A stretch of 64,000 nucleotides of DNA, from assembly GCA_051294905.1 (NCBI GenBank), contig CM119371.1, forward strand, positions 31,684,001 through 31,748,000, read 5' to 3'. This DNA comes from Botryllus schlosseri. Its lineage: Eukaryota. Shown here piece by piece: positions 39,224-61,323 of the stretch; the first letter of the stretch is position 1; each line of letters opens with the position of its first letter. Both the position numbers and the translations under genes were made by a program. The notes under the pieces were generated by a model. It did not search any database, was not told where the DNA came from, and worked only from the letters and a program-made list of their open reading frames with translations.

Positions 39224-39671
39224 TGGTGTTGTAGACTTTGGAACTATTTTGTTAGTTGTCGTAGTTTTCATTCCGTATGCATGCCTCCTCTTCACATCGC
39301 CTAGTCCCGGATGGATGTCTGATTTCAAAGACACTCCAAGTCGTTTCCAGGCCTTCCTATCTTTTCATTGTATCGCGGTATCGTGGTGTTTTGCATTGAT
39401 GAGAAATTCCTAATAAACTGAGCTGAAAATGGTACATATATTTTCGGTTTCGACTCCATCGACACTCGCATCGCAAATGCCCGAATATTCGACTTGAAAT
39501 CGAATCACTCAGCTGGTATACCATCTTTACCAGCCCTAATTAAAATGTGATGTTTATCCTGAGGTAGTGATGCACGACGCAGAATTATGCAATGTCAATG
39601 TTCGTTGATGAGCATTCGATACAAATGGTATATGTGGACAACATTTAGAATATTCGTGGGCATGACAGCTA

Positions 39672-39874
39672 TTAGGACGACAGAACTGCTCTCTCCGTCA
39701 TTTCCAACGGTTCAGATTGTCTCGCCGGTATGGCGGTTGAGGACCCGCAAATCCTCCGAAGCTTTTCCCAGACGATTTCAGGCAAATCCGAATAAAGCAG
39801 AGGATTCAATGCGCTGTTTATCGGCACGATGAGCAAACCGGCCGGCAGATAGACATCTTTTGGTATATCGACTC
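39672..39874 (-). CDS. Gene A terminal exon: ECL3, TM7, C-tail, stop
   Basis: GVDIPKDVYLPAGLLIVPINSALNPLLYSDLPEIVWEKLRRICGSSTAIPARQSEPLEMTERAVLSS*. Confidence 0.93.
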
Positions 39875-42800
39875 CTGCATATGAAATTTGAACACATATA
39901 TTTTCCGCAGTGTGTTATCTATTGCGAGTTTGGGAAAAGTGTACGTTACTATCTCGCACTGCTGATCACGACTTTAAAAATGATAAAATGAAGTGTTTGA
40001 AATGAGAAGATTTGTGGACGAATTCATTGCCGCCCATCTCTGCGATATATCTGTGAATTGGTGAGATGTGAGCTTATATCATGCGTTGAGATGATGTAAA
40101 TATATACCAATATGTTAGGATTTACTGAGAGATGCATCATCCGATTTTACTACCTCGCTTGGGCCGAGGTGAGGTTTAGGACAAACCATATCCATTTCCA
40201 TATGCGTCCTTATAGCTTATGGTATTGGAATATTATGAGTCGTATGAGATACTGATGTTTCGCAGTGATCAGCTGCAGACGGATTTATTCAATTCTCCTA
40301 CTTTTTGCTTGCTATGGTATTATGACAAAAATAGTTTCATGAATCTTACAATACTGCTAAAACTCCATAGGTTGGAGTCATTTTGTCGGTCGTTACATGA
40401 TACCACTAAAATATTACAAATTGCAAAAGTATGATATTTGACTTGCAGTGGAAACCGGAAATGTGAAGCATGTTAACACCTTATCATACGTCCCATCATC
40501 TTATTGATGTAAGCTACCTGTAACTGACTAATGACTAGGGTTGCATTCAAAATAAAAATCAATTTAAACCACACATATTTAGAACGATGCCCTTGTTTAA
40601 AACATATGTTTTTTGTATTTTTTTTTCAAGCTATGACGTCAGGAATATTAAATTATGACTTCATAGTAGATTGACATTGACAATAAAAAATATAGGGTAA
40701 ATATAGCTCATTTGACGAAATATCTACGTACTATAGCTATTGAACCGACTATTTTGAGGGTTCCAACCAACGCGTAGAGTATACGTCGGCTATATCGGGT
40801 AGTAATCGTCCGTGGACTCATACAACATGTTTTTTATAAAGCATTTACACAATTATGTCATAATTATAAAACGAAATAAAATCTTCTTTTTTCAAAGGCC
40901 TTTGTTTAAAACACCGTTTAAAACATGTTTCAGACAAAGTGTGTTAAACAACCATTTGTTTCAAATGCAACCCCACTGATGACCATGAAAATGTGTTTCC
41001 GGATGACTGCCAGCAGTGTCATGTCGAATATCTTCTGTTTCATTTATACATAGCCGACTTGCTTAAAAGTATTATCCTATAATAAATCATCTTATAGCTG
41101 GACTTCATAACTCACCATTGAAAGTCAAGAAACCCATGATACAAATCGGTATCCAACATAGAAAATCCGTTACGACGATTCTTGTCAGCTTACGTTGCAG
41201 TTTCCGGTTTGCTTCGTTATATTTCTCATCGCCAGCATGTGAATTCGCGCCGGTTAGATTCGCCGTGGCCTGTCTAGTGAAGAATAACTTCAAAAACTTC
41301 AAAATATGCGGTTGATCACAATTTCACCGATATTCTATTTCAAAAATGCAAAGTTAGCAAATACATTTCACTTAAAAGTAGATGACGGAGTTCCGACAAG
41401 TAGCTACTCACGTAAATTTGACAAAGTAGATTTAGTCGACCGGTGGTATTAATTTGGCAGTAGTTAATCAGAAGATGAGTTATTTTCAAAACGCAATATG
41501 TATACATTCATGGCTAACGTGGAACAACAAATACACAACAAATATACGGCCAATTTCCGAAAATCTAGTCAGCTACCCTGATTCGAGGGATCCTTCACCC
41601 AGTTGTCATGACAATTTCCCTTGAAAAATTTATGCATTTCCCATAAGTGCTAGTGATTTTGCAAAATCAAAAGTGTAACAAGTAAGTAGCTTTGCCTAAA
41701 ATACATGGAAAAGAAAGTAGTCTATATATACAACCAATTAAGTTATTATTACTACACATAGGTCAATACTACTTATACTCGACCATCTTTGATGTCACCA
41801 AGTCATCTTCTCAAAAATCCATGAGCAAAAGTGGGCTGCTGTAAACGTATAGATCTACTAACGATTTGATACACTCAAACTCTAACAGTAACATCAGATC
41901 AAATCAAGTTCTGAAAATCATGGAATCGGAAGTACCTGAACAGCAGCACATAGCAGATAGACATGTACAGAAAAGCCAGAAAATTGACAAGTAAGAGGAA
42001 GAATGAATATCTCCATGTCCTGTCTGTCGATGGATCGGGAAAAAACGTCGGCAGACAAACGCCGTGACTTGAATAGTAGCCAAATTCGTAAGTAACAGAT
42101 ATGTTCGGGTTCACGCCATGAATCATATTCTTCAATTGGCTCCATTCAGTAGACCTGCGTATTGTTTTTCGAAAACTTGATCCAAATGAATACTTTAATT
42201 CCCATTTGATGATATAGTCTACGTACCCATATCGTGACATGTGTGTGACGTTCATAATACTGAGCCAGTTCTTGGTGTACTGAATTTCATGATAATACAT
42301 GACTTTGAAGATTCGGTTTTCGTTGAACCTGATATAAATACAACGAATACAGTATACAACAAATCTAACACTGTAATCCGAGTCGTGATTGAAGTGCGAT
42401 ATTTCTAGACCAGTGATTTCCAGCCTCTGCTTTCTGAGCCGTATGCGGATCCACGATATCAATCTTGTTCCTCTCATTGACCCATAAAAATCCCCCCAAA
42501 ATAATTTGACATTTGTTGTTTTCTATCAATAATTCGCGTCAATTTATATATATCAAGGCTAAACTAACGGGCATTAGTTATATCTAAGCCGCTCAAGGCC
42601 GCTTACAACAAGCGGGAAGACGATTCCTACGGGCTCGCGTCAAACGGATTTATGAATTAGAGGTCGCCCTATATCATTTTTTTGCAGGTCGATACCGATA
42701 CCGATTATCGACACACTCACAAGGCCGATAACCGTTATCATTGGCCGATATCAATATGGAAGGAGCAAGGAACCATATATCGCTAAAGATATTACATATT

Positions 42801-45800
42801 AGGCAAGATGGCACTTGTAAATGCCACAGAAAGCTGAACAATAAACGAGAAAAAGAGTTATTGCTGAATTGTGCATATTTATTGAAATTTCGGATAACTC
42901 AAAAAGCTAAACGCGACATAGAATTGCAGATCAGTCCAGTAGATGTAGATGGTATTGCAGGAAGTATATTTTCTCTGCATTCCCGCCCAGTTAAACTCGT
43001 CCTGCAATGTAAATCTGACAGGTATCACCCTTTGCGTCTTCGATTTCTTGAGATTAACAACACGGAGCTTTGAATTTCCAATATTTAAAAAAAAAAATTT
43101 ATACATAATATATCGGCCAGGTCGATAATCGGTCGACCTCTAGTATGAATACCAGTCACATAACGGAATCTTGCGTTCAAATAGCAATAGACCTGATATA
43201 TTGTTTCTGTGATGAGCGCAGGTACTTGCCAATACAGTTTTACTAAGTGCCAACAATAAACTGCGTTAATTAGCCGGCTAATATTAATTAGTATTGACGA
43301 CTGTTGCTCGTTAATACAATACTTCCCTTCTATACCATGATATGTGTCATTCGTGGGTTCTTTCCGATTTTTTTTGTACTCATGTCGTAAAAACACCGCC
43401 GGCTTAGCGGAGGAGAAACCGACATAAACCTCTCACACTCCAAAGAGTAATAACGTCGACACTCCGATCGGAATCCCATCAAAAAACTACGTTAACTCCC
43501 TCGCCGAGTCATAAGTTTGATAGCACATGATAAAGAGGCTCCTGTTCGCTACTTACGCAACGCTGCTTACAAAGTAATCTTCAAGTTGTGGTATAAGCGG
43601 AATTGTGCCGAGTAATATCGATATCACCCATGCAAGCGAAATGGCAAACGTCGTGCCGGTAAGGTGTGGCCGGGATAATGGCCTGGCAAGAATATGAAAA
43701 CAACTAAATGATAACGTTACACACATAGGTAATTAAGTATAGGTGAAAGATACGCAGAAAATACATTTGGAAACTAGCGGAAGAGAAAAATGAATTTTTT
43801 CCCCTGGTACTCCAGTGAGTCGTTTAAAATAGTAGACGTGGTCGATGGGCCGCACACTTTTGGCAGGTTTCAAATTCTAAATTTGTAATATGTATCTTTT
43901 TGACCAACACAAACTCCTAATGAAAAATAGATGCAATCTTCTAATACAGTGGTTCTCAAACTGGGAGGCGCCACCCTTTGGGGAGTAAAGGCACTTGAAG
44001 AGGGGGGTAGTCGCCTCAAAGAAATTATGTTTCTTGAACTTGTAATAGGTGTATTTGTGCTGGAATTTCCGAGTACATTAAGAATTTAAATGTCATAATT
44101 GCGTCGTATCCTCCATACACCGTTGCTATATATTGACTGATGCCGCATCTTGCACTGATCAGAAGATATCTATCAATTAAGTGTAACTGGTGAATACGTG
44201 CAGCTGATATCTGACGCGGGGCCTACGTACGCCCCGGCTGATGCTTTTATAGCATGTGCACCAAGCATATATGCACAGTGAATGTAGAGGCACAAAGTTA
44301 CCGAGAAGAGAATTCATTATAAAATTATGTCATAATGCCTTTTGAATCTAATAAATAATGATTTAAATCGCAGTGACCAACAACGTCGAATAAACGACTC
44401 CGAGTATAGCCTACTCAATTACGACCGATTGTGTTAAATGTTACCCTTAATTAGCGTATTTTATGACAGCCCAAAAGTACTCGATTAAGTTATTCACTTG
44501 TTAGACACCTGCGAACCGAAAGGAAAAATTATTTGTCACGTGAGAAATTGACAAGTTCGAACGACGTGGACCCCGCACCATTACTTTTTATATATCTTAT
44601 GGTGAGGTACGAGCTAAGCTTAAGAAGGCCATAGAAGTAATTAGAAACGAGATAACTAAAATAGGTATGCTATGTGCTACTATTGCGCATGATTCTTTTT
44701 GCTCAAATAAAGTAAACTGGAAATTTTTTCGCGCTTCGCGTGATTTCCTTCCATCTTGTAAATATTGCTCTGCGGTGTCCGAATTCCGTATTTGAGAAGT
44801 CTCTCGACAGTCATTGACTTCCATGGCAACAGATCATGGAATATGATTGCAAACATTGCAGATGCTCTTTTCAAAAAAAGGTGCGCGACACTTTTCACTG
44901 TCATCAACGGGACATGTTTTAAAAAGTTTTTACAACCGCTATTCTAATATAAATTTGCTTGCCGAGATATAGGAGATATTTCACGTGTATTTTATGGAGA
45001 TTTCACTCTTGATAGTGATGAAAAGTCTTATAAATTTAAATTATAAAATATGAGCATTTTGCTAATAAAAGTATTCAAGTAGGAGTGGAAGGGATTGAGA
45101 GGCTATGATACGCAAGTCATTATCTGAACCCTTGCTAAGCTAACAACTACTCATCTGTCTGAATATATAAATCAATAGTAAGACTGTGAATAGTAAGATA
45201 TCTTGAAAGAGGTGAATAGTTACCTATGTAGGACAGCAGAGCCAGTGCTTACAAGTGACTTATATATTTTGCATGTTACGAGTTCGTCTTCTTATCGAAC
45301 CCATCCATTTATTCCAATATAATTTAGTTACTATGGATTCGCTCGAATAAAAGAATTACCTCATCGCAGAGTGTAGTCTCTGGGTTGCAATGATTGCCAT
45401 CGTGAACACCGACTGCTCGGAACCAATAACCATGATTGCGCCCAACGCAGCACAAGTGCTGCTACTCCGCCATTCACGGTCGACATGACAGTAGTCCGTA
45501 TCATTTCGAGAAGCCTTTATGCATATCGAAAATGCGTATACCTGCAAGTCGTAAAGTTGCTTGCGTATATCTAGAAGCTGAGGAAATTCATGTCTAACTC
45601 ACGCCTACGATCATATCAGAAAATGATAGGCTTAATATCAGCCTGCGTATAATCTTGTTGCGCGTCGAAGTGCTCGTCACGTGATTAGACAATAAAGGTT
45701 TGATCATCGTCCGTAGGGTTATAGCAATTACACCTGTACAGCCGATGATTGCCGCCAAACCTGGAATAAATGAAAAGAAATTGGCAATGGCACAAGCATG

Positions 45801-48800
45801 GCACGAAACGTGAAGCTATATACTCAACGATTGAAAAAACGTACGACGTGAATGCATTATTGCAGATGTAAGTGTTAATTTACGGAGCAATCAAGTCTCA
45901 AAGCCGATGACAAAACAATGGATCGCTGTTCGGAAGAGAAAAAATTGATCACTCATTTTTCGGTTTAGAATATTCGGCTTTGAGTAAGCGGAAAATATAC
46001 TAAGCATAAAACTGAACTCGTTAGCTGCTAAATAACACCAAATCATTCGATTTACTTATTATCCAGCTTATCGCGAGGATAGCCTCGCTGGCGATCAGTG
46101 ACTTTTCATCGGAGAACGCGCTTTTAACACAGCCTGCCTGGCACTCGTCAACTCCCGACTTGCAATCTTTAATTCCGTCGCATACCTGCAATGGTGATGT
46201 GCAGTGGTGGGTGGGTGGTAGGTGGGGCCATATTTTGCAGAATTGACCTTTACTTTTCAAATTCTCACCGAGACCCCACCAGGACTTAAATCTGGGCCGT
46301 TCCAGTTTAAAAGTGGGCGGAGAATAGCCCTCTACCGATTCCACTCTTGATCGACACCCCATGACATGTCTGAGGTTTTTTAATGAGTTTAAATAAACAA
46401 ACTTTTTCTCCACAAAAATCTCTCTCTATCTCTCAATTTTCAAGGCTGACCTTCAGTATGGCGTCAGAGAGAGGAATATGATGCTTCAGTGCGTAGCCAC
46501 TGTTGCCTGGTTTCAAACAAGCCGCCAAACATGGTTATAGACCGCGCGGCTCGTCAGATATCGAAAAATGGAAAATACATTTAAAATATACAAATGGGCG
46601 TGGTCAGTGAGTGGTCATTGAACTCAAGTTCATGATCAAGATTCAATCAGCCCCTGCAGTCCGGTCTATGGCATAAAACAACGCGATATGTTTTCTCTGG
46701 TCATATCCAACCATTTGCAGGCATAGTAAACCTGTTTATGACTCATATGCCGAATGAATTTGCACTTGAACTTGACCTAGATTTTAAAATCACTGAAGCG
46801 TGATCAAAATTACCGAATCCCCCTCCGAAAACTCTCCAGAACACGTTTTGATGTTTGAAACGGTGAAAATTTACACAGAACACCCTCATGTCGACTTCTG
46901 ATGTTCTGACAGATTTTCCGACAATATTTCCCACTCGGAAAATATCTGGAAATTTTAGGTGATAACCATATTTTCAGTTATTTTTTATTTATTTTTACAA
47001 ACCGCAATTTTTGAGTACGGTTCCAAATGCATCGGAAAAGTCTCAGCTTTTCAAAAAACGTACTGACCGATGTCTAGGGCGGGGCGTGTCAACATGGAGA
47101 AATCGGTGTCGGAGACATGCCATATCATATATGATACACCCATCTCGTAAGAATTAAGTAAGAAAGAGAGTAAAAGAGAAATATAATATATTAGTTTGCA
47201 TATTCATTCAAAATGCCTTCGACGTTACATGCACCATTTTATGATTGTACACTTGAGAGCAATTTCGCAAAGTTCTTAATTCATAACGTCTTACCGCATT
47301 CTGAGAAATATATTGCAAAATTCCATCATCTTTGCAACTAAAATGCGGACAGTCAGCCTCGTCAGTTCCACTATCGCAGTCCTTAATTAAGATTGACATA
47401 TAAAATGTAAGCATACGATTTGCGGATAGTTTAAAGTCAAAATTCATACGGCCTGCATGTCACATTTTTTCTCAATCGCAATGTTCGGCAAGGGTTGATC
47501 AGAGCAGTAAAACCTGTAAGAATTGTTCGATAAATAGCCTTCCTAGGGTAACCTTTTTTTAGCGGAAACACAAACCTGCCGTTAATGAGTTATGTTGCTT
47601 AATTCATTTTACAAAGTTTTTCTTGGAAAATAGGTATCGTTTCCATAAATTTAGCGCAATGCCGTTGATATAGAATATAGATCGATGATTTGTCATGCTA
47701 TTTCAAACTATAGCAACGTTAATTGCAATATCTATCAGCGGTCTGACTCATATGTGATCTAATTAGGGGCATAAATTCCAAAGTGCTGAAAGTGTTGTCA
47801 CTCAAACGGGCCCGACGTTACGCCTGCTGAGATACATTGAGTAGCTGTTAGCATGAGTTACCTTGATTTACAACCGAGTTCGTCCGCATATTGTTCGCAT
47901 TGACTCATGCCATCGCATACTTCGTCGAGAGTAACATCTATCGGTGATCCCGTTTCGAAGTGTCGACACCTTGAAATGAATACGGCCATGTTGGTTATTC
48001 TCCATCTCAATCATTTATGTCTACTTCATTGGTTATCGAGCCACCGTGCAACGAGTACCTTCGAGGTATATAGTAAGAATCAGTTGGTCAAACTGGCTAT
48101 ATCCTATGAATTTAGAAATTTATCATTGGTCTGAAGACAGTACGAGAATTTCTATCCGAATTAATAACGCCTTGGAAATTTTCAGCGCCGTTTCAAGCGA
48201 TAACTCAACAAGGTTGTTTGTTTTGGGGTATTCATGGAGTTTGTCGACTACTATGGTCATTTACACCAGGCCGATATTCTTCTTATTTTCCGTAACTGCC
48301 GACTTATAGCACGGCCCACCTCTAGGCTTTTGTAAGACACCACTGACGCGGATGAGGTGGCGAGGAGGAGCCTAGGTAAACCTCCGACACTTAGGTATCG
48401 GAATTCTGAAGTCGACCTCGGTTGGACTCGAACCCGCACCCATTGGTGTTGCAGCCGCGGATTATACCACTGCCAATTAACTCGGCAAAGTCGAAGCTGG
48501 TATTTATGGCGGTAGACGCTTGGTTAATGTACGGTACAGCAATTACATTGTCTTCCATTATTGGAAATTTCTAGTAGGACGTGCGGCTCCCATGCATTTT
48601 CCCTTCACCAGATTTCGTGAACCAAGCGTAAATGGTAGGCCTACATTAAATTACATTTTCCCGATGTTTGTGGAATCAAGGTCCCGATAAATAAGGCCTA
48701 TACTTGGAAATTATACATTGAATACCCCTATTATTGATGCTGCGGCCCGCGGCGTCATCATAAACTGGGGAATTGGCCAACGAATATATTTAGGTTTGAG

Positions 48801-51800
48801 ATCCCTGCCTTAAATACTCCAGAAAAGTACTAGAATCTCATTACCAATGACATCTGTATGTAATAGAGGGATGATGATATATCTAGCTTGATAAGGGGGT
48901 GAGAAGTCAAACACATTCTGGGAGTCACCTTCTCAAACCTAGGAACTATGGTCGAGACAGATCGAGATTAGATTAATGGTGAGGTCGCAGATGAGTGCGA
49001 AACGGGTCTTTCCCGTACCGACTCCAAGTGAACCCCTATGAATGTTACAGGCTCATTGCAGATGCAATACCTGAATTCACAGTTGGGCGTTAAGCCTAAT
49101 TGCCTTCCAAATCTGGAGTTAGAATGAGAATTCAAGTTTTGCAATAGCCTGCAACTAGAATAATATTATTGAATATACACTGTATGACATGAGGGAGTAA
49201 TTTCTAATATTGTCGGATTCAAACGTGACGACAAGTACGTTTCAACTTACTTTGGTCTGTGATCTTGATAGTGAAGATAATCTGTAAAATCATAGTCGTA
49301 CACGACGATATGGTCACAAAAACCCGGTTCCGTCTCGCAATTGCATTCTTCGTCCATGAAATCGTTGCATTCTGGTATACCGTCGCACGCTGTGCCATCT
49401 GATTTCGAGGCAAAATACGGGTACACGAATTCATGAAGTTGAGTTAGAAATGTACCGTAGTTCGGTAGATAGAAAGAGATTGAAAAATATGTAACTCACT
49501 TCGTCATGAGCACGACGTTATCGAATATTGATTTTGCGGGGGTTGGGAACAATTCCAGAGTGCTTAGAATCAATAACAAGTAATCTTACTCGGCACTGCA
49601 TCGTCGCGAAATGGCTATACCTTACACATACGATGGATATTTAACTATTGAACTCACACTTCCCAGGAGGTTCGTAGCATTTATAATCCAGTACTCTGTC
49701 GCTTGGAGACATTCTTTGTCTTGATTCTGAAATTCGCAATGTATTGCAAAATTATCTAGGAAAATGTCATCATATGCACCCTGCCTTTCTGGGCAGAGTT
49801 CATCGGTAGACTAACGTGGGTCACTTTAATTTTGATGGAGTGTGGATTTAAACAGGCTGACATCGTAACGATAATGCTCCCCATCGGAAAAATGCCACAA
49901 ATTTGGAACCCGATGACTAAATAACACGGTGTTGCGGCTTCAATTCTACATGTGCGTGATAATGGATAGTATTTAGTGATAAATATGAATAGCATTATGT
50001 TATAGCAGTGCCGGTCAAAGTAGCCAGCGTTCCTACTCAAGTAGAAGTAAAGGTAACGCCTACTAATTATCAGCAGAAGTAGCGGTTTCGACGTCTTTGC
50101 AAAACTACAACAAATGAAAATAGAGAAAGGAAGGCTGAAATTTAATCCGTCACTGGTACTGGCTTCTTCCCAAATTCAGAGATTTATCATCGGGACTCTC
50201 AGAAGTCGACTAATGACAGTATCCAGTTCCTGTGATACAATGACTATTCCATGTGGATTTTATGACAAATTCACTCTCAAAAGAGACGCAAACTTACCCC
50301 TTGACCACTTTCAGCTTTCAAAGATTCAAAGTGCAATAGTTGAAAAGTTTTTCCAAAATATCTGTTCGATTAGAAGTAGACGTATAGTCTAAAACAGGGC
50401 TGGCCAACCTTTTCAGCCAAAGGGCCACATTCGATTGACGAACTATTGCGCGGGCCACTAGCCGCGCGAATCGCGAAAAATTTTCGAAGTTCATAATTCA
50501 ATAATATTGTTACTTGACTATATTGCGGGCCTGTTGTATATCGCTGGGCTCAGTTTGTGAGGACTGGGCTATTCGGCGCATGGACATAGCGATATCGAAA
50601 GCTGCGACCAAAATGCGTCAATCATTTCGTGCCTAGGTTTCATAGTCGGCGGTCTGACTGCGAGCGCAAACGCAATGTCGCATGGGCTATGTTGAACGAC
50701 ACTTTGTCTCGTAATCGCGAATATAGCTAGACTCAATCTGATACATTAGGTATTTTTCCATTTTCACAAATGAGCAACAATATTAAAAGCAAGAAATCGA
50801 GTGACAAGATGTTGCACCAAGCTTGTAGAAAAATTTTACCTTTGATAAATCTATCGCAAATTATTCTGCTTTATTGTGGTGTACGAAGATATACCAATAA
50901 GTGAATGGCTGATGGATCTGTCAATGCGTCGGAACTGAAATTTTAGTCATCACATCTCAAGTGTTGCGACCAGACTAATCAAATTTTTTGTTCGCCTTGC
51001 AAGTTCACAATCTGTGCATGCAATCCATTTTTGATGATATTAGAAATTGCGGAAATGACCTCGCGGGCCACTCAAAACCTTCTCGCGGGCCACGGGTTGG
51101 CCGGCCCTGGTCTAAAACAACAAGGGTTGTAATGACTCGAGTCCAACTGGAATAAATTTTTCTAATAACTTTACTTGTACTCGAGTCATTGTGCATGACT
51201 TGAACCAAGTCATATGACCCGAGACTGGGACGGCCAAGACAGGCATTTCATTGTAACTTCGAAGCATAGTAAAGTTACCACGTTGTTGGTATTTCGTCTA
51301 TCAGTCAAACTTGAAAAATAACGCCATAAACTGTTAAGACCGGGGAAAATTACTATATCACTCGAGCAGTGTTGAAAATTTTGGTTCCACGGGATTGAAC
51401 TGAAGACTGAATAGTGAGCATAATGACTTGGACTCGGACTCGAGTCAAAACACTTTGACTCGGACTCGACCCTCTACTACAGGGATATCAAACATGCGGC
51501 TCGCCAGACGATTTCATCCGGCACGCGAAGCAATTCTGAGTATTCCTTAAGGAAATGCCTGTATCATCCAGCACATCTCTAACAATTATTGAGAAATGCA
51601 CAGGGTTGTAACCAAGTCACAAGGCACCGAGTCACAAGTCAATCTCAGTTTTATAGTTTTGACTCGAGTCAAGTCGAGTCATTTTCAATTCACCACCGAG
51701 TCAAGTCCGAGTCCAAGTCAGCGAAAAGAGGGTCGAGTCCGAGTGACGGCATTATGACTCGAGTCGAGTCTGAGTCATTATGTTGACTGCTCAGTTTGCT

Positions 51801-54800
51801 GGTAATGTCTTGTTAAACCCACTTTTTATAACTCTGTTTGGTAATATAGAATGGTGGTTCGCATTTATAATATACTACTTTTCATCACTTTTAGCAGTTT
51901 CTGGTCGCATTTTCAGGGACCAGTACCAATAGATGAAATCCCATTAGTGGGATTACTTTACTATTCTTCGAAATTTCAATCAGATGTTGGTCTTGGCCGC
52001 CTGCGTCTCGAGTCATGCGCAATGACTCGAGTCCAAGTCGAGTCAAGACACAGATTGACTCGAGTCGATTCATTTCCATATTATCCGAAAACGACTCGAG
52101 TCAAGTCGAGTCAAGTCGCGTCCGACTCGAGTCACGACTCGAGTCATTACGACCCTGGAAATACACCTATTAAAAATTATCTCAAGGCAGAAAATGCTGT
52201 GTGTGTTCAATTGTTCATTTTAATATGCCTCGTTATAACCATCAGGCAGCGGTGTTCAGATGTCTTTCTGTTCACCATTAGGAACGAGTCGCTGACATTG
52301 ACACACAATCCTGGAAGGTCCAAAAGTGAACACTGATGTCAGATTTTTATGGAGAAAATGACCAAAACGTAGTTATTCACAGACGCAAAAACACCAGAGG
52401 TGGTCAAAGTAGTCAAGAAAGCTACTCAAGTAGAAGTAGAAGTAGCGAAGAAAAAATCTACTCAAGTATGAGTAGAAGTACTTCTTCCATAAGCAACCTA
52501 AAACTACTTGAAGTAGAAGTAGAATTTACTGACTTTAAAAGTACTCAAGTAAGTAAGTAGTTGTGAAAACGATCCTAATTCGTTCATATGGATTGTAAAA
52601 AGGTGCAAATTGAGCTATGCGAAAGGTGACGAGCTTGATTCATATTGATCCATACCAGCAGGTATCCAATTCTCGATAGCATAAGCATTCGTCCACATCA
52701 TAGGATGAAAATGATAGTATTATTATGGAAATGTGATACTTATCCTGTTTTCTCGAACAGCACGTTTTAGAAAATAGCATGTTATGGCGCCATCCCCCAT
52801 ATTATAAGGTCCGTAGTTTAGTCGAAGAGCAATACGGAGAAATTGTATAGGATACGGCGTAAACACTTTGCACGTTTAGTAAACGTTAATAAAAAAATGG
52901 GAGACCGTAAAAATGCCATATTGTGTAGCTTTATTTCCGGAAATTAGAGGCATTACTACACTTGCTTTTATACTTCAACATGTATTTTATCCAGACAAAA
53001 GAACTGATATTAATTATAACTCAAAATATATGATACTGGGGATTGAAAATAAAACATAAATACTACTTGTAAAAGCAGAACACATTTTTCATGCCTTCAG
53101 TCCAGAAAATTTCAAAGGCGGTATGCTAAAACAGAACTAAAACTAACAAAAAAGTCAGAGTCCACTTTTCCAGGTTAGGACGTACCATGGACCTGCTAGA
53201 GTACGATATGACAAGTAAATGACAGATTGCGAAACATCAGTTTCAAACAATATGATGAGCCATATATGTGATGAATTATTTCATATGGACGAAGGGCGAC
53301 AATGTGTCGTGAACGCAGGGATATCTAGTTCTAGATATCCCTGCGTGAACGGAATCACGCCAACCCGCTACCTAAATTATATTCATCGATACTTTCGTAA
53401 AATCATACTGGTAACTCCGTATTCACTGCGGGCGAAGCGCGAAGAAAATTCTGAGCTTTACTCTACTTTTATGAAAATTAAATGTTGATGCTCCGTGAAA
53501 ACAGTACCTGATTGGAGGATTGAACTACTTCTACTTGACAAACTGAAAATAGCGAAAAGTAAGTAAGTAGATCACAAAATATTACGAAGTAGAAGTAGCG
53601 GAAATCAGATCTACTTGAGTAAGTACCAGAAGTAGAGGAAAACTACTTGAGTACTTCGAAAAAGTAGAAGTACTTCGTTACTGACCACCTCTGGAAAACA
53701 CCAATTCGAAACCGTTATATGCAGGTTACATCGGGGATGTAATAGTTACACAAAGATGGACTTCAAATATCTGTGGCCGCATATCACATCTGACTTCTGA
53801 CAAAGATTCGTGGTCTCCCGAGAAACCCGAATCTCAAATAAATAATACGCCCGCCTTTCCAGTTACGTCTTTTGCATTGCTGTCAACGCATACGCAGGAC
53901 TGCCGCCCGAGAAAGACTGAAACAAGAGAAGTATAAACATATTCCAGCTTATATCGTCGTTAGAGCCAAGTTTTTGCTGATTATAAACGGTCAATCTTCG
54001 TATTACTTCCGATTCCATTGTTTGGTAATAAAGTTGTTGCGTAATTTAATGTAGTTATCTATACCATTCTATAAATTAGGTATTTTTAATAAAGTATACA
54101 CGTGAAAAACAATGGCATTGACTTTGAAGTCACGCCTTGGAATCACTTGACTGGTGGACGCCAGTTGAGTTTGACATCCCTGCTCTACGAGCTGACTTGG
54201 ATTCGGACTGGACTCGGTGATGAATTGAAAATGATTCGACTTCATTTGAGTCAAAACTATAAAAGTGAGATTGACTTGTCGCTCGGAACCATGAGACTTG
54301 GTTAGAGCCCTGCGCCAAGGATATAAAATTAAATCGCGACTGCGCCCGAGCGATCTGTTATTATGTATGTAGTATTTGCTGAATTTCTTGTAACAAGAGA
54401 GTTTCTTCACGCTTCGCGCGATCTCCTCTGGGTAGTTTGTGAGTGTCCAAAGTCATTGTGTTTGGTACTAAGTTCTATAAGCGAGGCACGTATTACGCAA
54501 ATTGGTCGGACCAGTTAATCTCGATTGCTCCTCAATTTTAAATTGCAAGCGTCACACATGCGTCGTAGCGCTTGTTGTCTGCGTATTTCATATTTTACCG
54601 TAAAAACGTACTAAACTAACATTATAAATGCATTATTAAATAAGTCGCGAGATTCCAACAAAACTCAGAGTTTGGTCGCAGTGTGAAAAGATTAAAAACC
54701 TAGGTTCTAAAATATTACCCAGTATGCACAACTTACGCGAGTACTCCAAAGAATTAGATCTTACAACAGTGGAGTAGTAGTAACAATACAGTAGTAGCAG

Positions 54801-57800
54801 AAAAGTACTTTGTTACTGACCACTTCCTGTGCTATCTGAGTATTTGGAAAATCGAACTGCGAATCAATGATCAAAACATCACATGGAACAAATATTTTAT
54901 GAACAATATCGTGTATTGCAGTGGTGCAGTGGTGCAGTGGAGTAATATATGTCTCTTTTAGGTATAAGATATGGCTCTTTGCCAAATATTAATTTTTGTA
55001 CGGAATTGTTCAATATTTCAGCGACTTGTTAGATTTTTCTCACGACCAGAATAATTATTCTCGTGGCAGTATAAATATGTTTTTGAGCGGTAAAGACAGT
55101 GCCGTCTTCAGGTGTAGGGGCTCTGACCTCATCTTTTCAAAATCCTCAAATTTTAGTTACTGTCGCACCGGCGACCAATTATCCCTCGCGAATAAGAGGT
55201 ACCCGATTCGAAATCTTGGATTGCGCGATACCTTGATTAATCGAAGAGCGTAGCAGAAATGGCGACGCCAATATCACAACGCAGTTTTCAAATACACATT
55301 GTCGTCCTGATCCACGGCGCGAAATGAACTGTCGTGGACGTAACATTCACAATTACAAACTCGAATTACAAACAACGCCATAGCTATCCACGTTCTTGAT
55401 TGGTAAGTATCTCCGGGGTAAAATGTGCGCGTGTAGCGCAGAGTCATGTTACCGCCGAAGACTTTGAGAATTGAGAAGTCGATCAGTATATAGATTTTCG
55501 GTATCAATGTGACAGTTACATTTGGTAATTATCAGTTATAATAAATTCTAAGCTATTAGAGATGAATTGCGTTTGCAATGGTGAGGCTTGACCCGTCTGT
55601 GCTTTACCTTTCGATTCGAGCTTCAGTTTCTAACAATAAATACCAGTTTTTACAGAGAAAATGTGGTGTACAGTACGGATCACATGTAGTGAGTTCGAAT
55701 AAGTGCATAAGTGCTATCATGACGTCACGAAATGTCCATTGTGGCGTAGCAGTTGATTGGCATGTATGGCTCTTTGGGAGTTAAAATGAAAAAAAATAGG
55801 GCCAATATGGCTCTTCGCACAAAAAAGGTTCCCGACCCCTGGTGTATTGGATGCATTTTTTCAGTGAATTGCACAATTCCGGTGCTCCAATTAGACATTG
55901 TCATCGGCCGTCACGATCCCACTTATTTTAACCATCAACCAATATCTATCTGGGATTAGGGCGTTCATACCGGCTGTCCGCGGTTGCGATTACGCGTCTA
56001 CACAATATACATATATCGTGCATGTCCTTTTACCGTGAAAAAAGAATGTGACATACCTGTTAGCTGACAATATTCCTCGTCTTCACGTTTAGGACAATCC
56101 CACCTGTGCACAAAAATTTTAATTTACTGATATCTGTGATGTTCCCCAGTCAATTGCCTTCTTAGAGTCACATGCCTAACGCTGAGGTGAGACAACCATC
56201 ATGGATACAAGCCATGTGGTTGGCTTGTGATGCCGTGAACGTCTCTATAATGAATTTTCCTGTATCCAAGCACATATTCGCACTTTTGTGAAACCGTACT
56301 AATGACTCTTCAATGATGGTAACATATTACATGTTCATTGCGAATTCGCGATACTATTGTCGTCGGCGTTCGTGCAAACCTTCGTGGTCGCGTTCTTGCT
56401 CGGATTTGCTCAACCTAGCCCAATATTTTTAACTGTGTGATGAGTAGGCTATTACATGCGTTGTTCGTACTCGTGATTTCCGTTCGAAATTATATTTAGT
56501 CTTCTTTCCCGTGTTAACGCAGAATAAAGAAGTCATATAAGCCAGATTTCCAACGACTGTCACCCAATTCTCCAAATCTATCTCTTTCGAAATAGTTGCA
56601 ACTTTTAGCATTTTGTAGGCTGAAACAGTAATGGATGAATCGAGATCATTCTGCTGCACCTGCAGTAAATGAAATGTTAGCATCATCGATTATCTGGATG
56701 TTGATTGAATAATATTTGTTTCGAATTATATATTCAAACTTGTCATCACGCGGGAAAAGTTGTGAGTGTCTGCTGCAGGCCTGTCGATCTAATGGCTCCT
56801 TGACGCTATTTACTGCTCGTAACGAATACAAATTATCGACTCAAATTTGTCCATTCAAATTTCTATGCTTCTCCATTCGTTCGCGGTTAAATAATCCCGT
56901 TATTGACCTTTTTCAATGTGACGTGGGATTATTAATAAATGAAATAACAAACAGCCGTAATGCCGAGATTTATCAACACAATCAATTACTCTCAATGGTG
57001 AATGTACGAACACGACAGGTATTGGCCGTATGTGATTACCCGAAGGTATTTAACTGAACTCATTTGGATTTTTTTTATCTTGGCCGTTAGAAGAAAGCAT
57101 CGTATAACGATCAATATATGTTCGGGCATATCCAGCACGCCGACGATTTTATTGTAATGAACAGCATGAATAACTCCCTCCTCCTACCTGAGCATGTAGG
57201 CTCGTTTCATCATTCAAAACAGCTACTTACGCATTCTGCAAATTGATGTTACAAGCGCATGGACCACACTGTAAGTACCATAAGTTCACATAATGATACC
57301 ATGGTCAGTAACTACATTAATCGCTGCTTTCCGCAATAATTGTCATTGGTCGATGGTCATTCTTTTGTAGCGTACCTGCCATCGCAGACTTTCCAGGCGC
57401 CAATCAGTTTTCTAGACGTATACTCCTCACCATCGCATTTCATTGACGGCAGTCGTATATATCCAGTTTCGTTCGATTCTGTGGATTAAGCACAAATATT
57501 TTCATCACATAAAAATAATTGAATTGGGAAGACAGAGCATACCCCAAACGAATTTTTCACACAGTTTTGGTCGAATTGTCGGCGAACAGAGACATTCGTC
57601 AGTGAGGTCACGACAGTCGAATTCACCGTTACATAACTTCGAAATCGGTAGAACCACGAGTGGATCAGTCAAGCAACGGAAACAGTTGTTGTCCGAATAG
57701 TCTGATATAAGACATGGAAACGTTAATAACATATACAAATTCGAATGAATGCTACCTACAATTCTTGTTTTCTCCACAGAGGCACTCGTCGATATCTGTA

Positions 57801-60800
57801 TATAAATAAATCCACCATTTTGTTGTTGGGTTTGTGGTATTCATTGTGTGTGTTCGACTGCAACGCTCATCTTTAAAAGGCTGGCTATCTTTATTTGGAT
57901 TCCGTAATGCCGACTTATAGAACGGCCCATTTCTTGGCTTTTTCAAGACACAACTTGCGCCTACTTTTACTTATAATTGGGTATATAGAGATATGGCGTT
58001 TCTTCTACTTCTATTTATGTAACAATGATGAATATCTTGACCGCCTCTGAGGCACTCTAATACTGAAGAAAGACGGTTTCTTTTCGTGGCGTTCGGAGTT
58101 ATAAAGGGGCCAAATAGTCAATCAGAACACTATTTTCCTGCCCATGCCATTCTTTACTACCTATCAAGGGAACCAGGCTAGATCGACCGAACTTACAGCC
58201 TACCGATCACGAAACGTACTGCACATGCGACGCATGTAAATGCCTCCATACACCTACCGAAGTCGCAAAATGGAACTCCATCGCATATATTGGAAATCGG
58301 TATCAAACACTGTCTTCCATTGCGAGGGCATAGTCTGTCCGACATATTTGTTGCGTCTGAAACGGTTACTTCGTCGCTCCCGTCACTGCAAATAGAGCAG
58401 ATAAACGTGAATCATAAAAAGAGATACGCTCCCTGATGTAGCAGTATGTTTGCTGAGATTGAACAGATTTTTAAACATTATATCATTTATTTTGTTCTAT
58501 TCGATGCTGGTCAGTCACAAACAAATTTTATTGACAAAAAGGGAACATGCGGTCGTAATGTAATTCCATCATCAGAAATCAAGCCAGCTATGATACCAAC
58601 AGTGCCTTTGTATGGAAAGTCCGTTGTATCCAGAGTAGAATCCTTTAGAAGTAGACAGAGACGGGCAGTAACAGAGTAGTTCTACTTTACCGAATTTCTC
58701 GCCTACGTTTTGTCCCCATGCACTACTTTCCAAGTAGATACGTTGTAGAACAATTTCACCCGATCTGCTGGTTTCGGGAAAAATTACTTAGATTTTAAAT
58801 TTGGTTGGATGGTTGGTTGGTTAAATAGTTGCTGATTCGAGTCTCGGTTCTGCCATGTTTCTATGTGTCGGAGGCTTATCTGGTCTCCTCATCGTCGATC
58901 CCTCTGTATTTACAACGCCTTGAAAAGCCCAGAGGAGGAGAGAGTCGAACTCTGTAAAGAGGACCGCTAAATACCAGAAAAAGAAAGCAAGACTGCAAAT
59001 ATATTGATGTTACTGCAATTACCGTGTTGGGCGCAAATAACCTTATAGGCGATAAGCGCCAATGTTGTGAATAAAATAAAACAAATCAAACTGACAAAAG
59101 TATGAGAACCTTCGAACCCCACGTAGCCTTTTGTTTTATTTTTGTTCGCAACATTGACGCTCATCACCTATAACGTCACTCTCGCCCAGCACGGTAATTT
59201 CATTAATATCCGTGTCTTCGTGGTATTTTTCGTCATATTATGGACGATTTCCATGGTCGAGCGACCCATCATCGGCCGTTCTCGTTTTTCGTGCCTCCGT
59301 ATTTAGAGTCTTTGCAGCCGACTTTTTGGCTCAGCTCCCCTTCCTTCGCTATTTCATACACCGCAGCCAGGATAGCAATGAGGCGTCTAGATAAGTCTCC
59401 GAATGGCGTTGGTGTCGTGACGCAGGCGCTTAACCCTCTGTGCCACTCGCTCCCCCAAACTACTTGGTAGCTAATTAGTTGATTACTTTCAAGACCTTTT
59501 ACTTTTTTACTTGAAACGGTTTGGACATCTTTTGGAATTCGGTAATTCTGATTGTAATCGAGTTGAAATTTTTGATGCTTCTTCGAATTCTACTTGAGGA
59601 CCAATGCTGACTACTTTGACAACCTTTCCAATTGTATTGCTTGTAACTTAATACTTTGTACACGGCTTGCGTCAGACTTAAATCGAGAATTAAGGTCTGA
59701 ATTCGTAACCGCATTTAGCGACGCAAGTTCGAATTATCATTGAAATAATGGTGTCGACGTTCCTACAGCTAATACCCACTCGCAATCTGCAGTTCCATCG
59801 CAAAACTTGTATTCTAAAATGCAAAGCGCTCCGTTGGCACAGGCAAATTCGTTCGACGTACATTCTGAGCCTGCAAGGACAGAAGTGTCATTTTATGAAG
59901 TAGGTTACCATATTTTGAAATCGGGAAAGGGGTACACTTGTACCAAATCTTAAAAGTTATTTGACCTGCATTGAAAACCTGCATTGAAAACAGCCGATTT
60001 TGTGATATGTACCGGAAATCTGGTTGTTTTGCCTAAAAAGAGGGTCATCACTTCGACTCGATTCCCGGTTTACCCACTTTTTACACTTATTATGTGCTGT
60101 TGACTTAAAAAAAGGCTGTCACTTTCATTTGACTCCCGAAGGACACGCTCGAACGTCTTTATTACTTATTTTACGTCATTTATCCTGATTTTCGGTGGAC
60201 TCTATCCATTATCCTAGCTTTAAAAGCTGTTAAGGTGGACGAAATGCCAAAATTGAAGATATTTTCACCTCCTTGAAAAAAACGACGAATCCTCATTAGA
60301 GCAGGTTTGGTAACCCGATATAAATGTCAAATATATGTTACACCGCGACACATATATATGTGTCGTACTGCTGAACATGGGGCTTTAGCGCGTCACACGT
60401 ATGCTGCTAGTAAGAAACCATGGGGCGTAATGTGAAATATACGTTACGGTGATATTTGAATTAAAATGAATACAAGCCCTCGTATAAGCCAGGGCTCCCT
60501 GATATAAATCCGGTGACGATCCTGTTAATCAGTGTAGAACACGTAACGACTCATTAGCATTCGATTGCTATCAAAGGTTGGGTGGATAACATTGACGTGT
60601 GCGTCTTATACACATTTGTCTGGCGCACTTGGCTAAATTGTGTATTATTTCAGTTCGGAACAATTATCAGCATCAAATGCATGACAACCGTCAGTATGGC
60701 CCATTCAGACGATTTCATCAGTATTTTGTAAACATCGAAACAAAGTATACTCAAACAACAGAAAAATTATGTTTGGGCAGTTTTGTGTGCACGCTGCCGG

Positions 60801-61323
60801 TCGCACATATCCTGGTGGGTATAGGTGATTTTAGATATCTGGCAAAACATTTGTAGCACCCTTCCTTCATACTAAAAGTCACTCTTATCATAGCCTTTAA
60901 AGTCGCTGACATATCTCTTACTATGCGGGCCCGGAGAAGTAGCGACCAGCTATAATCATGTCACAATACGAAAAGGATAAACAATTTAGGCATTAACCTA
61001 TGGATACGCCACTTGCGAAAAGTCCTAGCCTCATTTCAAGACCCAGGAATTGATCTTCCCGGCTGCAAGCGGGACCGTGGTCGCACTTTGAAGCCAAGTG
61101 GAAATTGCTACACGAATGAATTCTAATCGTGGAGAACAAGACGATAAATATTTAGTCGACATCCTTACCTTCACACATTTCGTTCTTGTAAGGTACTAGA
61201 TTCGCTGGCAATTGGCATATTGAACGTTTGAAGTTATAGCCGTCATTTCTCCATTTCATGCGGCAAAATGTAGCATTGCTACCAATACCTTCATCTCGCA
61301 GTGGCTTCTCATCCGTACCATCC
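39672..61323 (-). CDS. Gene A (5'-partial, spliced): LDLa-repeat-containing rhodopsin-class GPCR (LGR/RXFP/GRL101-related 7TM, no LRRs seen)
   Basis: 20 phase-compatible GT-AG exons: 61169-61323, 59780-59870, 58258-58385, 57760-57795, 57543-57701, 57376-57478, 56057-56103, 49658-49726, 49251-49398, 47862-47969, 47450-47513, 47295-47381, 46056-46185, 45603-45760, 45360-45541, 43557-43682, 42227-42328, 41936-42154, 41116-41273, 39672-39874. About 8 LDLa-like modules, then LSFSDMIVG (TM2), WRSSSTC (ECL1/TM3), YYSSHGVCLP (ECL2), TDFLCWIPI (TM6), PINSALNPLLYS (TM7), and stop TAA at 39672-39674. Confidence 0.92.
40536..40975. mobile_element. MITE (same family as 10661-11090)
   Basis: Colinear similarity to 10661-11090; TSD CTAATGAC/CTGATGAC. 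Confidence 0.85.
41116..41273 (-). CDS. Gene A exon: ICL3 + TM6
   Basis: QATANLTGANSHAGDEKYNEANRKLQRKLTRIVVTDFLCWIPICIMGFLTFN; donor gtgagt. Confidence 0.93.
41936..42154 (-). CDS. Gene A exon: ECL2 C-part + TM5
   Basis: STEWSQLKNMIHGVNPNISVTYEFGYYSSHGVCLPTFFPDPSTDRTWRYSFFLLLVNFLAFLYMSICYVLLFR. Confidence 0.92.
42227..42328 (-). CDS. Gene A exon: ECL2 N-part
   Basis: FNENRIFKVMYYHEIQYTKNWLSIMNVTHMSRYG; phase 2-2, acceptor atcag, donor gtacgt. Confidence 0.75.
42658..43142. mobile_element. MITE with CCGATA subterminal motifs
   Basis: TIR TAGAGGTCG / CGACCTCTA; TSD TTATGAAT/GTATGAAT. Confidence 0.78.
43557..43682 (-). CDS. Gene A exon: TM4
   Basis: PLSRPHLTGTTFAISLAWVISILLGTIPLIPQLEDYFVSSVA; donor gtaagt. 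Confidence 0.92.
45360..45541 (-). CDS. Gene A exon: TM2 end, ECL1, TM3
   Basis: VYAFSICIKASRNDTDYCHVDREWRSSSTCAALGAIMVIGSEQSVFTMAIIATQRLHSAMR. Confidence 0.93.
45603..45760 (-). CDS. Gene A exon: TM1-TM2
   Basis: LAAIIGCTGVIAITLRTMIKPLLSNHVTSTSTRNKIIRRLILSLSFSDMIVG; donor gtgagt. Confidence 0.92.
46056..46185 (-). CDS. Gene A exon: last LDLa + hinge + start of TM1
   Basis: VCDGIKDCKSGVDECQAGCVKSAFSDEKSLIASEAILAISWII. Confidence 0.92.
47295..47969 (-). CDS. Gene A three LDLa exons (47862-47969, 47450-47513, 47295-47381)
   Basis: CRHFETGSPIDVTLDEVCDGMSQCEQYADELGCKSR|FYCSDQPLPNIAIEKKCDMQA|DCDSGTDEADCPHFSCKDDGILQYISQNA. Confidence 0.9.
48213..48475 (-). mobile_element. tRNA-derived SINE (most complete copy)
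   Basis: Minus strand: GGCAGTGGTATAATCCGCGGCTGCAACACC...GGTTCGAGTCC (pol III A/B boxes), then a tRNA-unrelated body and A-rich tail; fragments at ~1741-1902(-), ~38228-38345(+), ~57818-57950(-) and ~58835-58935(+). Confidence 0.75.
49251..49726 (-). CDS. Gene A two exons (49658-49726, 49251-49398), LDLa-like
   Basis: ESRQRMSPSDRVLDYKCYEPPGK|YGTACDGIPECNDFMDEECNCETEPGFCDHIVVYDYDFTDYLHYQDHRPK; the first exon is less certain. Confidence 0.82.
50395..51109. mobile_element. hAT-like MITE (same family as 6763-7414)
   Basis: TIR CAGGGCTGGCCAACC / GGTTGGCCGGCCCTG; exact TSD GTCTAAAA; internal similarity to 6763-7414. Confidence 0.9.
51601..52157. mobile_element. MITE of the GACTCGAGTC-rich family (opposite orientation)
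   Basis: TIR CAGGGTTGTAA / TTACGACCCTG; TSD GAAATGCA/GAAATACA. Confidence 0.85.
52395..53693. mobile_element. hAT-like MITE (same family as 28144-29423)
   Basis: Same TIR; TSD AAAAACAC/GAAAACAC; reverse-complement similarity along its length. Confidence 0.88.
56057..58385 (-). CDS. Gene A five LDLa exons (58258-58385, 57760-57795, 57543-57701, 57376-57478, 56057-56103)
   Basis: DGSDEVTV...CLIPISNICDGVPFCDF|DIDECLCGENKN|YYSDNNCFRC...LCNGEFDCRDLTDECLC...|...WKVCDGR|WDCPKREDEEYCQLT; all phases compatible. Confidence 0.88.
59780..59870 (-). CDS. Gene A 91-nt LDLa half-exon (A-type)
   Basis: GSECTSNEFACANGALCILEYKFCDGTADC; same length and phases as gene B A-exons. Confidence 0.9.
61169..61323 (-). 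CDS. Gene A B-type exon (most 5' exon visible)
   Basis: DGTDEKPLRDEGIGSNATFCRMKWRNDGYNFKRSICQLPANLVPYKNEMCE; phase 2-1, donor gtaagg. Confidence 0.88.

What the first reader, a model, noticed from the sequence alone, without database searches (positions are those of the whole stretch)
46056..47381. LGR/RXFP-type 7TM fused directly to LDLa repeats with no leucine-rich repeats
Seen: the final LDLa (…ISQNA|VCDGIKDCKSGVDECQAGC), the hinge (VKSAFSDEKSLI) and the start of TM1 (…AISWII) lie in one exon. The preceding intron splits a single LDLa, so there is no place for LRR exons between the LDLa string and the membrane. Established: RXFP1/2 (one LDLa + LRRs) and GRL101 (many LDLa + LRRs) place LRRs there, and LRRs are the hormone-binding surface in LGRs. 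I recall LDLa-only LGR-like receptors being noted in ascidian GPCR surveys, but cannot verify that here. Inference: ligand binding must rely on the LDLa/Cys modules, so this is an orphan receptor with a different activation mode.
Basis: partly seen in the sequence, partly recalled or inferred. Interest (0 to 1): 0.75.

Follow-up and report, generated by a model that had tools for sequence, protein, structure and literature searches.

The report
Sea-squirt LDLa receptor, stapled, no LRRs
This is a real, spliced gene, likely a sea squirt's, for one more member of a receptor family described in 2008 that lacks the usual hormone-binding repeats; its last cysteine-rich module is likely fixed to the membrane part by a disulfide bond and would pass a ligand's signal on in their place.

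Summary
Observation confirmed. Spliced contigs from 2 of 4 runs join 47295 directly to 46185. An 18-exon open frame gives eight LDLa-type modules, an RXFP-type hinge and a 7TM, with no LRR. The architecture is in print: it is the Ciona LDLRR-GPCR family (Kamesh 2008, PMC2396169), and the window's protein groups with Styela members. This scan has found other copies in the same genome, and had already noted the long second loop and the ctenophore relatives. Added here: a cysteine right after the last module's Asp-Glu and a cysteine in extracellular loop 1 are both present or both absent in 144 of 144 family sequences. That predicts a disulfide staple where RXFP1's LRRs sit, but it rests on only about four evolutionary changes. 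RXFP1's hinge switch is kept, its loop-2 agonist motif is half changed, and the acid of the DRY motif is lost family-wide. This copy alone has Cys for the conserved TM1 Asn. The ligand and signalling are untested. Verdict: new member of a known, undeorphanized family.

The parts
61169..61323 (-). Likely upstream exon: second half of an LDLa module plus Cys-rich spacer; the gene likely continues beyond 64000
   Evidence: AG/GT ends, phase fits the next exon; join not seen in RNA
59780..59870 (-). Exon: first half of LDLa module 1 of the model
   Evidence: Pfam Ldl_recept_a 32.9 bits; splice sites; join not seen in RNA
58258..58385 (-). LDLa exon
   Evidence: X1 record 6 covers it but runs on into the upstream intron
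57760..57795 (-). 36-nt micro-exon
   Evidence: fits the 36-letter gap in X1 record 6
57543..57701 (-). LDLa exon
   Evidence: contig pieces in X1 and X2; Pfam E 0.0028
57376..57478 (-). LDLa-region exon
   Evidence: length fits X2 record 14
56057..56103 (-). LDLa-region exon (47 nt)
   Evidence: same length check
49658..49726 (-). 69-nt exon
   Evidence: one of 3 Cys-bearing candidates, chosen because it closes the 367-nt gap in X2 record 14
49251..49398 (-). LDLa exon
   Evidence: tblastn with family members
47862..47969 (-). LDLa exon
   Evidence: 348-nt joint in X1 and X2; Pfam E 0.0057
47450..47513 (-). First half of the second-last LDLa
   Evidence: joints on both sides in X1 and X2
47295..47381 (-). 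End of the second-last LDLa and first half of the last LDLa
   Evidence: joints in X1 and X2
46186..47294 (-). 1109-nt phase-0 intron inside the last LDLa; holds repeat DNA and no LRR motif
46056..46185 (-). Second half of the last LDLa (predicted staple Cys at 46143-46141), RXFP-type hinge (46116-46093), start of TM1
45603..45760 (-). TM1 (Cys at 1.50, 45740-45738), ICL1, TM2
45360..45541 (-). TM2 end, ECL1 (predicted staple partner Cys at 45490-45488), TM3
43557..43682 (-). ICL2, TM4, start of ECL2
   Evidence: loose ends at 45359 in X1 and X24 resemble its start
41936..42328 (-). ECL2 insert, ECL2 Cys motif (42057-42043), TM5
41116..41273 (-). ICL3, TM6
39672..39874 (-). TM7, C-terminal tail, stop
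   Evidence: contigs cover 39500-39779

Best explanation
This is a spliced gene for an LGR/RXFP-type G-protein-coupled receptor whose chain of LDLa modules runs straight into the hinge with no LRRs; the last module is likely disulfide-stapled to extracellular loop 1 and would, with a predicted folded insert in loop 2, form the cap that restrains an RXFP1-like built-in switch until a large ligand, probably a protein or lipoprotein, binds the LDLa chain. Shown: gene structure, absence of LRRs, kept hinge residues, the insert, the cysteine covariation. Inferred: the disulfide, the cap's restraining role, the ligand class and G-protein signalling.
For: Structure. Staple: of 144 distinct family last-module sequences, 111 have both the Cys after Asp-Glu and the ECL1 Cys, 33 have neither and none has one only; 0 of 19 GRL101 rows have the ECL1 Cys. 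Switch: residues matching RXFP1 Ile396/Ser397 are kept in 97 of 110 non-ctenophore sequences. The Leu402/Leu403 pair is hydrophobic in 55 of 56 tunicate-side rows, and the Phe564 position in 56 of 56. The window has Phe-Ser ... Leu-Ile at RXFP1's spacing. In RXFP1 the LRRs sit above ECL1 and restrain the hinge/ECL2 agonist, and removing them gives 70% basal activity (10.1101/2022.01.22.477343, passages and section 9). The AlphaFold model of Styela relative P0007 (pLDDT 85) orders the insert as helix, two strands, helices, strand. Large-ligand idea: PMC2396169 section 14.
Against: The covariation reflects only 4 changes on the tree, with 2 independent pairs on well-supported branches (sign test p 0.5). 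RXFP1's second agonist residue (Leu566) is not hydrophobic in any of 56 tunicate-side rows (Lys/Arg in 42; Thr in the window), so the C-phi-P-phi motif is broken. 33 of 144 relatives lack the staple, so it is not required family-wide. This copy has Cys at 1.50 where 54 of 56 rows have Asn. No ligand, expression site or signalling was tested.
Confidence: 0.45

Rival explanations
1. The receptor is largely always on: with the restraining LRRs gone, the hinge and ECL2 drive tonic signalling, and ligands on the LDLa chain tune it down or set its location.
For: RXFP1's 7TM without LRRs signals at 70% of maximum. The acid at 3.49 is absent in 56 of 56 tunicate-side and 21 of 21 ctenophore-side rows but present in 16 of 19 GRL101; that loss raises basal activity in other class A receptors (recalled, not from a call).
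Against: The inhibitory hinge Ser and hydrophobic residue are kept, as are the TM6 Asp and TM7 Asn. The ECL2 agonist motif is half lost.
Confidence: 0.2
2. The ligand binds the ECL2 insert or the pocket beneath it (a basic residue in place of RXFP1 Leu566 would suit an acidic ligand), and the LDLa chain only presents or concentrates it.
For: The insert is 55-86 residues in all 77 LRR-less rows against 2-3 in 19 GRL101. It is predicted folded in two models and varies strongly between paralogs. Lys/Arg stands at Cys+3 in 42 of 56 and 21 of 21 rows.
Against: The window has Thr at that position. No known binding domain matched the insert (Atlas; Pfam). The LDLa modules keep their acidic motifs.
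Confidence: 0.2
3. This copy signals poorly and acts as a capture, uptake or decoy receptor.
For: Private Asn1.50-to-Cys change, a long branch of 0.8-0.87, and a long LDLa array like those of endocytic LDL receptors.
Against: Asp2.50, Arg3.50, Trp6.48, Asn7.49 and Tyr7.53 are intact, and the frame is open over 18 exons.
Confidence: 0.12
4. LRR exons exist and were missed, making it an ordinary GRL101/RXFP receptor.
For: The 5' end lies outside the window and was not examined.
Against: Direct joint in 2 of 4 runs, no LRR hit in the window, and 0 of 33 relatives with an LRR Pfam match.
Confidence: 0.02

Closest known systems
Ciona LDLRR-GPCRs (Kamesh, Aradhyam, Manoj 2008, PMC2396169) and unnamed Styela clava relatives such as XP_039271686.2 (P0008) and XP_077970539.1 (P0102)
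   Same: LDLa array, RXFP-like 7TM, no LRRs. 37% identity over 785 columns to P0008; 49% in the 7TM core to P0102; clade with Styela rows at 100/99.
   Different: Longer ECL2 insert (86 against 55-78 in 38 named tunicate rows), Cys at 1.50, and likely a longer ectodomain. The paper's main text has no hit for 'disulfide', 'insertion' or 'ctenophore'.
RXFP1 (type C1 LGR; PDB 7TMW)
   Same: Best solved sequence match to the family profile; hinge residue spacing; ECL2 Cys followed by a hydrophobic residue and Pro.
   Different: RXFP1 has one N-terminal LDLa plus LRRs, no ECL2 insert, no ECL1 Cys at this place (alignment), and Leu at Cys+3.
GRL101 (type C2 LGR)
   Same: Many LDLa modules, LGR-type 7TM, hydrophobic hinge pair (19 of 19).
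   Different: LRR motif present in 19 of 19 against 0 of 77; no insert; no ECL1 Cys; a separate side of the tree at 100/99.
Mnemiopsis leidyi LDLa-7TM proteins (P0191, P0199, P0201, P0202; hypothetical proteins)
   Same: No LRR, last LDLa directly before TM1, ECL2 insert of 61-66 residues, ECL1 Cys, basic Cys+3, no acid at 3.49, same order of predicted secondary structure in the insert of clade member P0081.
   Different: Shorter hinge without the Phe-Ser pair (0 of 34), Phe instead of Pro at Cys+2, own clade on a long stem, and only weak sequence likeness of the insert.

Membership tests
LDLRR-GPCR (Kamesh 2008) | One to ten or more LDL-A repeats in the N-terminal part | tested here: met
   Eight LDLa-type motifs in the model. 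Single-exon Pfam: 1 of 17 exons above the cut-off and 3 more weak. 30 of 33 relatives have the Pfam match.
LDLRR-GPCR (Kamesh 2008) | No LRRs | tested here: met
   for the part inside the window; the far N-terminus was not examined.
LDLRR-GPCR (Kamesh 2008) | 7TM similar to INSL3/relaxin receptors | tested here: met
   Family profile ranks RXFP1 first among solved chains. The P0007 model's first 30 listed fold matches are all LGR-class. A single window exon hits LHCGR best at E 0.005.
LDLRR-GPCR (Kamesh 2008) | Groups with ascidian members in a 7TM tree | tested here: met
   With Styela rows at 100/99. The paper's own ci0100 models were not placed; current Ciona proteins were used.
LDLRR-GPCR (Kamesh 2008) | Expression mainly in blood cells (EST observation) | not testable with these tools
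   Run and tissue names are coded.
RXFP1/2 (type C1 LGR) | Single LDLa followed by LRRs | tested here: not met
RXFP1/2 (type C1 LGR) | C-phi-P-phi motif in ECL2 | tested here: not met
   Window has Cys-Leu-Pro-Thr; fourth place hydrophobic in 0 of 56; motif.
RXFP1/2 (type C1 LGR) | Hinge Ile-Ser ... Leu-Leu switch before TM1 | tested here: met
GRL101 (type C2 LGR) | Many LDLa plus LRRs | tested here: not met
   LRRs absent; outside the GRL101 group.
LGR superfamily | Placement in a rooted tree with type A, B and C1 receptors and non-LGR outgroups | not tested
   No such sequences were returned as usable proteins; the last protein search gave GRL101-type receptors only.

The most novel reading that the evidence does not exclude
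The LRR-less LDLa receptors of tunicates and ctenophores are one ancient fourth structural class of LGR, kept in these two distant lineages. An LDLa module disulfide-stapled to ECL1 and a folded ECL2 domain replace the LRR ectodomain as the control cap, and the built-in agonist is rewired (basic residue for RXFP1's Leu566, no DRY acid).
Probability: 0.4. Interest if true: 0.72.

Novelty: new member of a known kind. Interest (0 to 1): 0.4.

Why it matters
The family has been an orphan since 2008; in the library searched, 'LDLRR' with 'GPCR' occurs in that one paper only. RXFP1 work shows that the LRRs are the brake on the receptor, so a natural LGR without them must use another brake or be always on. 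The predicted staple gives two single-cysteine mutants that test this directly. If the ctenophore receptors share the origin, an LRR-less LGR class dates to the root of animals, which bears on whether LRRs were lost from, or added to, relaxin-type receptors. As a single gene it is one of many copies and not surprising to a tunicate GPCR specialist.

Tried and rejected
No whole genome is held, so the gene's 5' end and the paralog count were not examined. The run search listed no holder on record as RNA. Raw reads of X5 and X9 gave no depth in the bins from 43502 to 46169 and X7 none on the exons; this says nothing on expression. A word-based search with the ECL2-TM5 exon found nothing; the HMMER search did (86 hits). 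Atlas search of the insert: no usable hit. A viral carrier for the family: 54 pattern matches, none confirmed. Horizontal transfer from tunicates to ctenophores: the quick tree nested ctenophores among tunicates without a star, but the careful tree put tunicates on one side at 71/72, so it is not supported; no AU test was run. Contamination of the Mnemiopsis entries is unlikely, as they lie on four contigs of 14.9-18.5 Mb. Sequence homology of the tunicate and ctenophore inserts is inconclusive: a tunicate HMM scored the four Mnemiopsis inserts 3.6-7.0 bits against shuffled maxima of 3.1-5.2, and the window's own insert only 6.4; profile-profile score 15.2, probability 8%, against 13.3 reversed and 11.8 best of 40 shuffles. 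A first parity count had 4 exceptions of 144 caused by extra cysteines; the position-specific count replaced it (one search had a pattern error). The window's own spliced protein was not folded; relatives P0007 and P0081 stood in.

Full report
Observation. The finding lies in a minus-strand gene. Eighteen exons from 59870 to 39672, all with AG/GT ends, give one open frame of 796 codons ending in a stop. A further exon at 61323-61169 fits in phase, and no signal-peptide exon was found, so the gene likely starts beyond the window. Contigs from runs X1 and X2 skip the 1109-nt intron 46186-47294 with CT..AC ends and 37-54 letters on the short side; X24 and X7 do not show it (2 of 4 runs). The same call shows joints for the introns of 68, 348, 295 and 62 nt nearby; the 295-nt one has only 20-21 letters on its short side. 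One X2 contig of 1003 letters and depth 5.85, which I take to be the same record, leaves 367 letters between exons 47969 and 57543. The four modelled exons there sum to 367, but one of them (69 nt) was picked from three candidates to fit. So there is no room for an LRR block next to the membrane or in the preceding modules. tblastn with four LRR-bearing GRL101 proteins found no LRR exon anywhere in the window.

What it is. The model has eight LDLa-type motifs, a hinge and a 7TM with LGR hallmarks. An HMMER search with the ECL2-TM5 exon gave 86 relatives. I scanned 33 of the longer ones: 33 have 7tm_1, 30 have Ldl_recept_a and none has an LRR family. Ten looked up by name are Styela clava (8) and Ciona intestinalis (2) proteins. 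A family profile ranks RXFP1 first among solved chains, then glycoprotein-hormone receptors, LGR4 and somatostatin receptors. In a 43-row tree without the ECL2 insert, the window's protein sits with three Styela proteins at 100/99. The host is therefore likely a stolidobranch ascidian (inference). Kamesh et al. 2008 (PMC2396169; passages, section 14 and a term search of 4 supplements seen) describe 14 Ciona LDLRR-GPCRs with this architecture, suggest lipoprotein or large-protein ligands, and report mostly blood-cell ESTs. Searches for 'LDLRR'+'GPCR' and 'GRL101'+'ascidian' return only this paper; the library lacks most subscription journals.

How it likely works. For RXFP1 (10.1101/2022.01.22.477343; passages and section 9 seen), ECL2 is a built-in agonist (Phe564, Leu566), hinge Leu402/Leu403 are needed, and the LRRs with Ile396/Ser397 hold it off. 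The LRRs sit above ECL1, and a construct without them signals at 70%. I scored 56 tunicate-side rows (38 named, 17 unnamed placed by tree, and the window), 21 ctenophore-side rows (4 named, 17 unnamed) and 19 GRL101 rows. The hinge pair is hydrophobic in 55, 20-21 and 19. The Phe564 place is hydrophobic in 56, 20 and 19. The Leu566 place is hydrophobic in 0, 0 and 19, and Lys/Arg in 42, 21 and 0 (Thr in the window). The acid at 3.49 is present in 0, 0 and 16. An ECL1 cysteine is present in 43, 21 and 0. The ECL2 insert is 55-86 residues in all 77 LRR-less rows and 2-3 in GRL101. AlphaFold models of Styela P0007 (pLDDT 85) and ctenophore-clade P0081 (pLDDT 80.5) give it the same order of helices and strands.

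The staple. The window's last module carries five cysteines, an odd number. I took the 236 LRR-less family sequences in hand; 144 had a complete and distinct last module and ECL1, and the rest were dropped as fragments, duplicates or non-matches. Of the 144, 111 have both a Cys directly after the module's Asp-Glu and a Cys six places before the ECL1 Trp position, 33 have neither, and none has one only. In members with three cysteines in the module, that Cys is the only one left without its usual partner (LDLa pairing recalled from general knowledge), which points to it as the ECL1 partner. Both traits change four times on a FastTree tree, with only 2 independent pairs on starred branches (p 0.5), so the count is much weaker than 144 of 144 sounds. 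The reading is that the last LDLa is fixed on ECL1, where RXFP1's LRRs rest, and with the ECL2 insert forms the cap over the switch; ligand binding along the LDLa chain would move the cap. Confidence 0.45. Rivals are tonic activity (0.2), binding at the insert or pocket (0.2), a decoy role for this copy, which alone has Cys at 1.50 (54 of 56 rows Asn; 0.12), and missed LRR exons (0.02).

Ctenophore link. Of 120 listed hits (310 in all) of the family profile among longer proteins, 5 carry LRR families and 4 are Mnemiopsis leidyi proteins with LDLa and 7tm_1 only. They share the characters above, but lack the hinge Phe-Ser pair (0 of 34) and the ECL2 Pro. Sequence likeness of the inserts is inconclusive. 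Trees give a firm ctenophore clade and a weak tunicate side (71/72). With GRL101 as the only other group, they cannot tell one origin from convergence. The passages seen in Roch and Sherwood 2014 (PMC4079206) describe comb-jelly LGRs with LRRs only, and those in PMC12716839 do not mention this build; searches listed no paper that evidently does. The supplements of these two papers were not read and may bear on this.

Earlier notes of this scan. Other windows of the same genome were given the same family call, with the ECL2 domain and the ctenophore relatives. I had reached these points before looking and do not count the notes as support. One unreviewed note places a 54-kb run of two-exon LDLa units 324 letters beyond this window's end, which may be this gene's front part; I could not check it.

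Verdict. Real and correctly described, a new member of a published but undeorphanized family, with a testable structural prediction added. Interest 0.4.

Noticed in passing
window 589-30982, minus strand: A second gene front built from a repeated two-exon unit: seven LDLa first-half exons (near 30980, 25960, 19280, 12695, 8530, 4058, 1547) and seven second-half exons with AG acceptors (26436, 22392, 18871, 10583, 5193, 3112, 589). It resembles the N-terminal part of Styela P0008 and is likely a tandem paralog whose 7TM lies left of the window.
   Followed up: partly
window 58258-58740: X1 contigs run on from the LDLa exon into the upstream intron (to 58548 and 58740): unspliced RNA, a retained intron or an alternative 5' end.
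   Followed up: no
window 46185 (loose ends): Contigs of X2 and X24 match the hinge exon but continue with related, different upstream sequence, pointing to paralog transcripts with the same LDLa-splitting junction.
   Followed up: partly
window 45740-45738: Cys at TM1 position 1.50, where 54 of 56 tunicate-side, 21 of 21 ctenophore-side and 19 of 19 GRL101 rows have Asn.
   Followed up: partly
window 52660-52705, minus strand: An intronic stretch reads like the 36-nt micro-exon's Cys motif but lacks an AG acceptor; possibly a decayed exon copy.
   Followed up: no
window 48171-48837, 50172-54173, 58824-59499: High-copy interspersed repeats in the introns; the one near 48250-48520 looks tRNA-derived (SINE-like) by eye.
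   Followed up: no
P0106-P0219 (unnamed ENA/JGI proteins): Many unnamed relatives of 800-1400 residues come from metagenome-type assemblies; if those were called without splicing, many tunicate and ctenophore members would be intronless, unlike this gene of 18 or more exons.
   Followed up: no
P0040, P0041, P0044, P0058, P0076: Weak multi-stretch hits to the ECL2 exon that do not align with the receptor model; likely unrelated repeat proteins.
   Followed up: no
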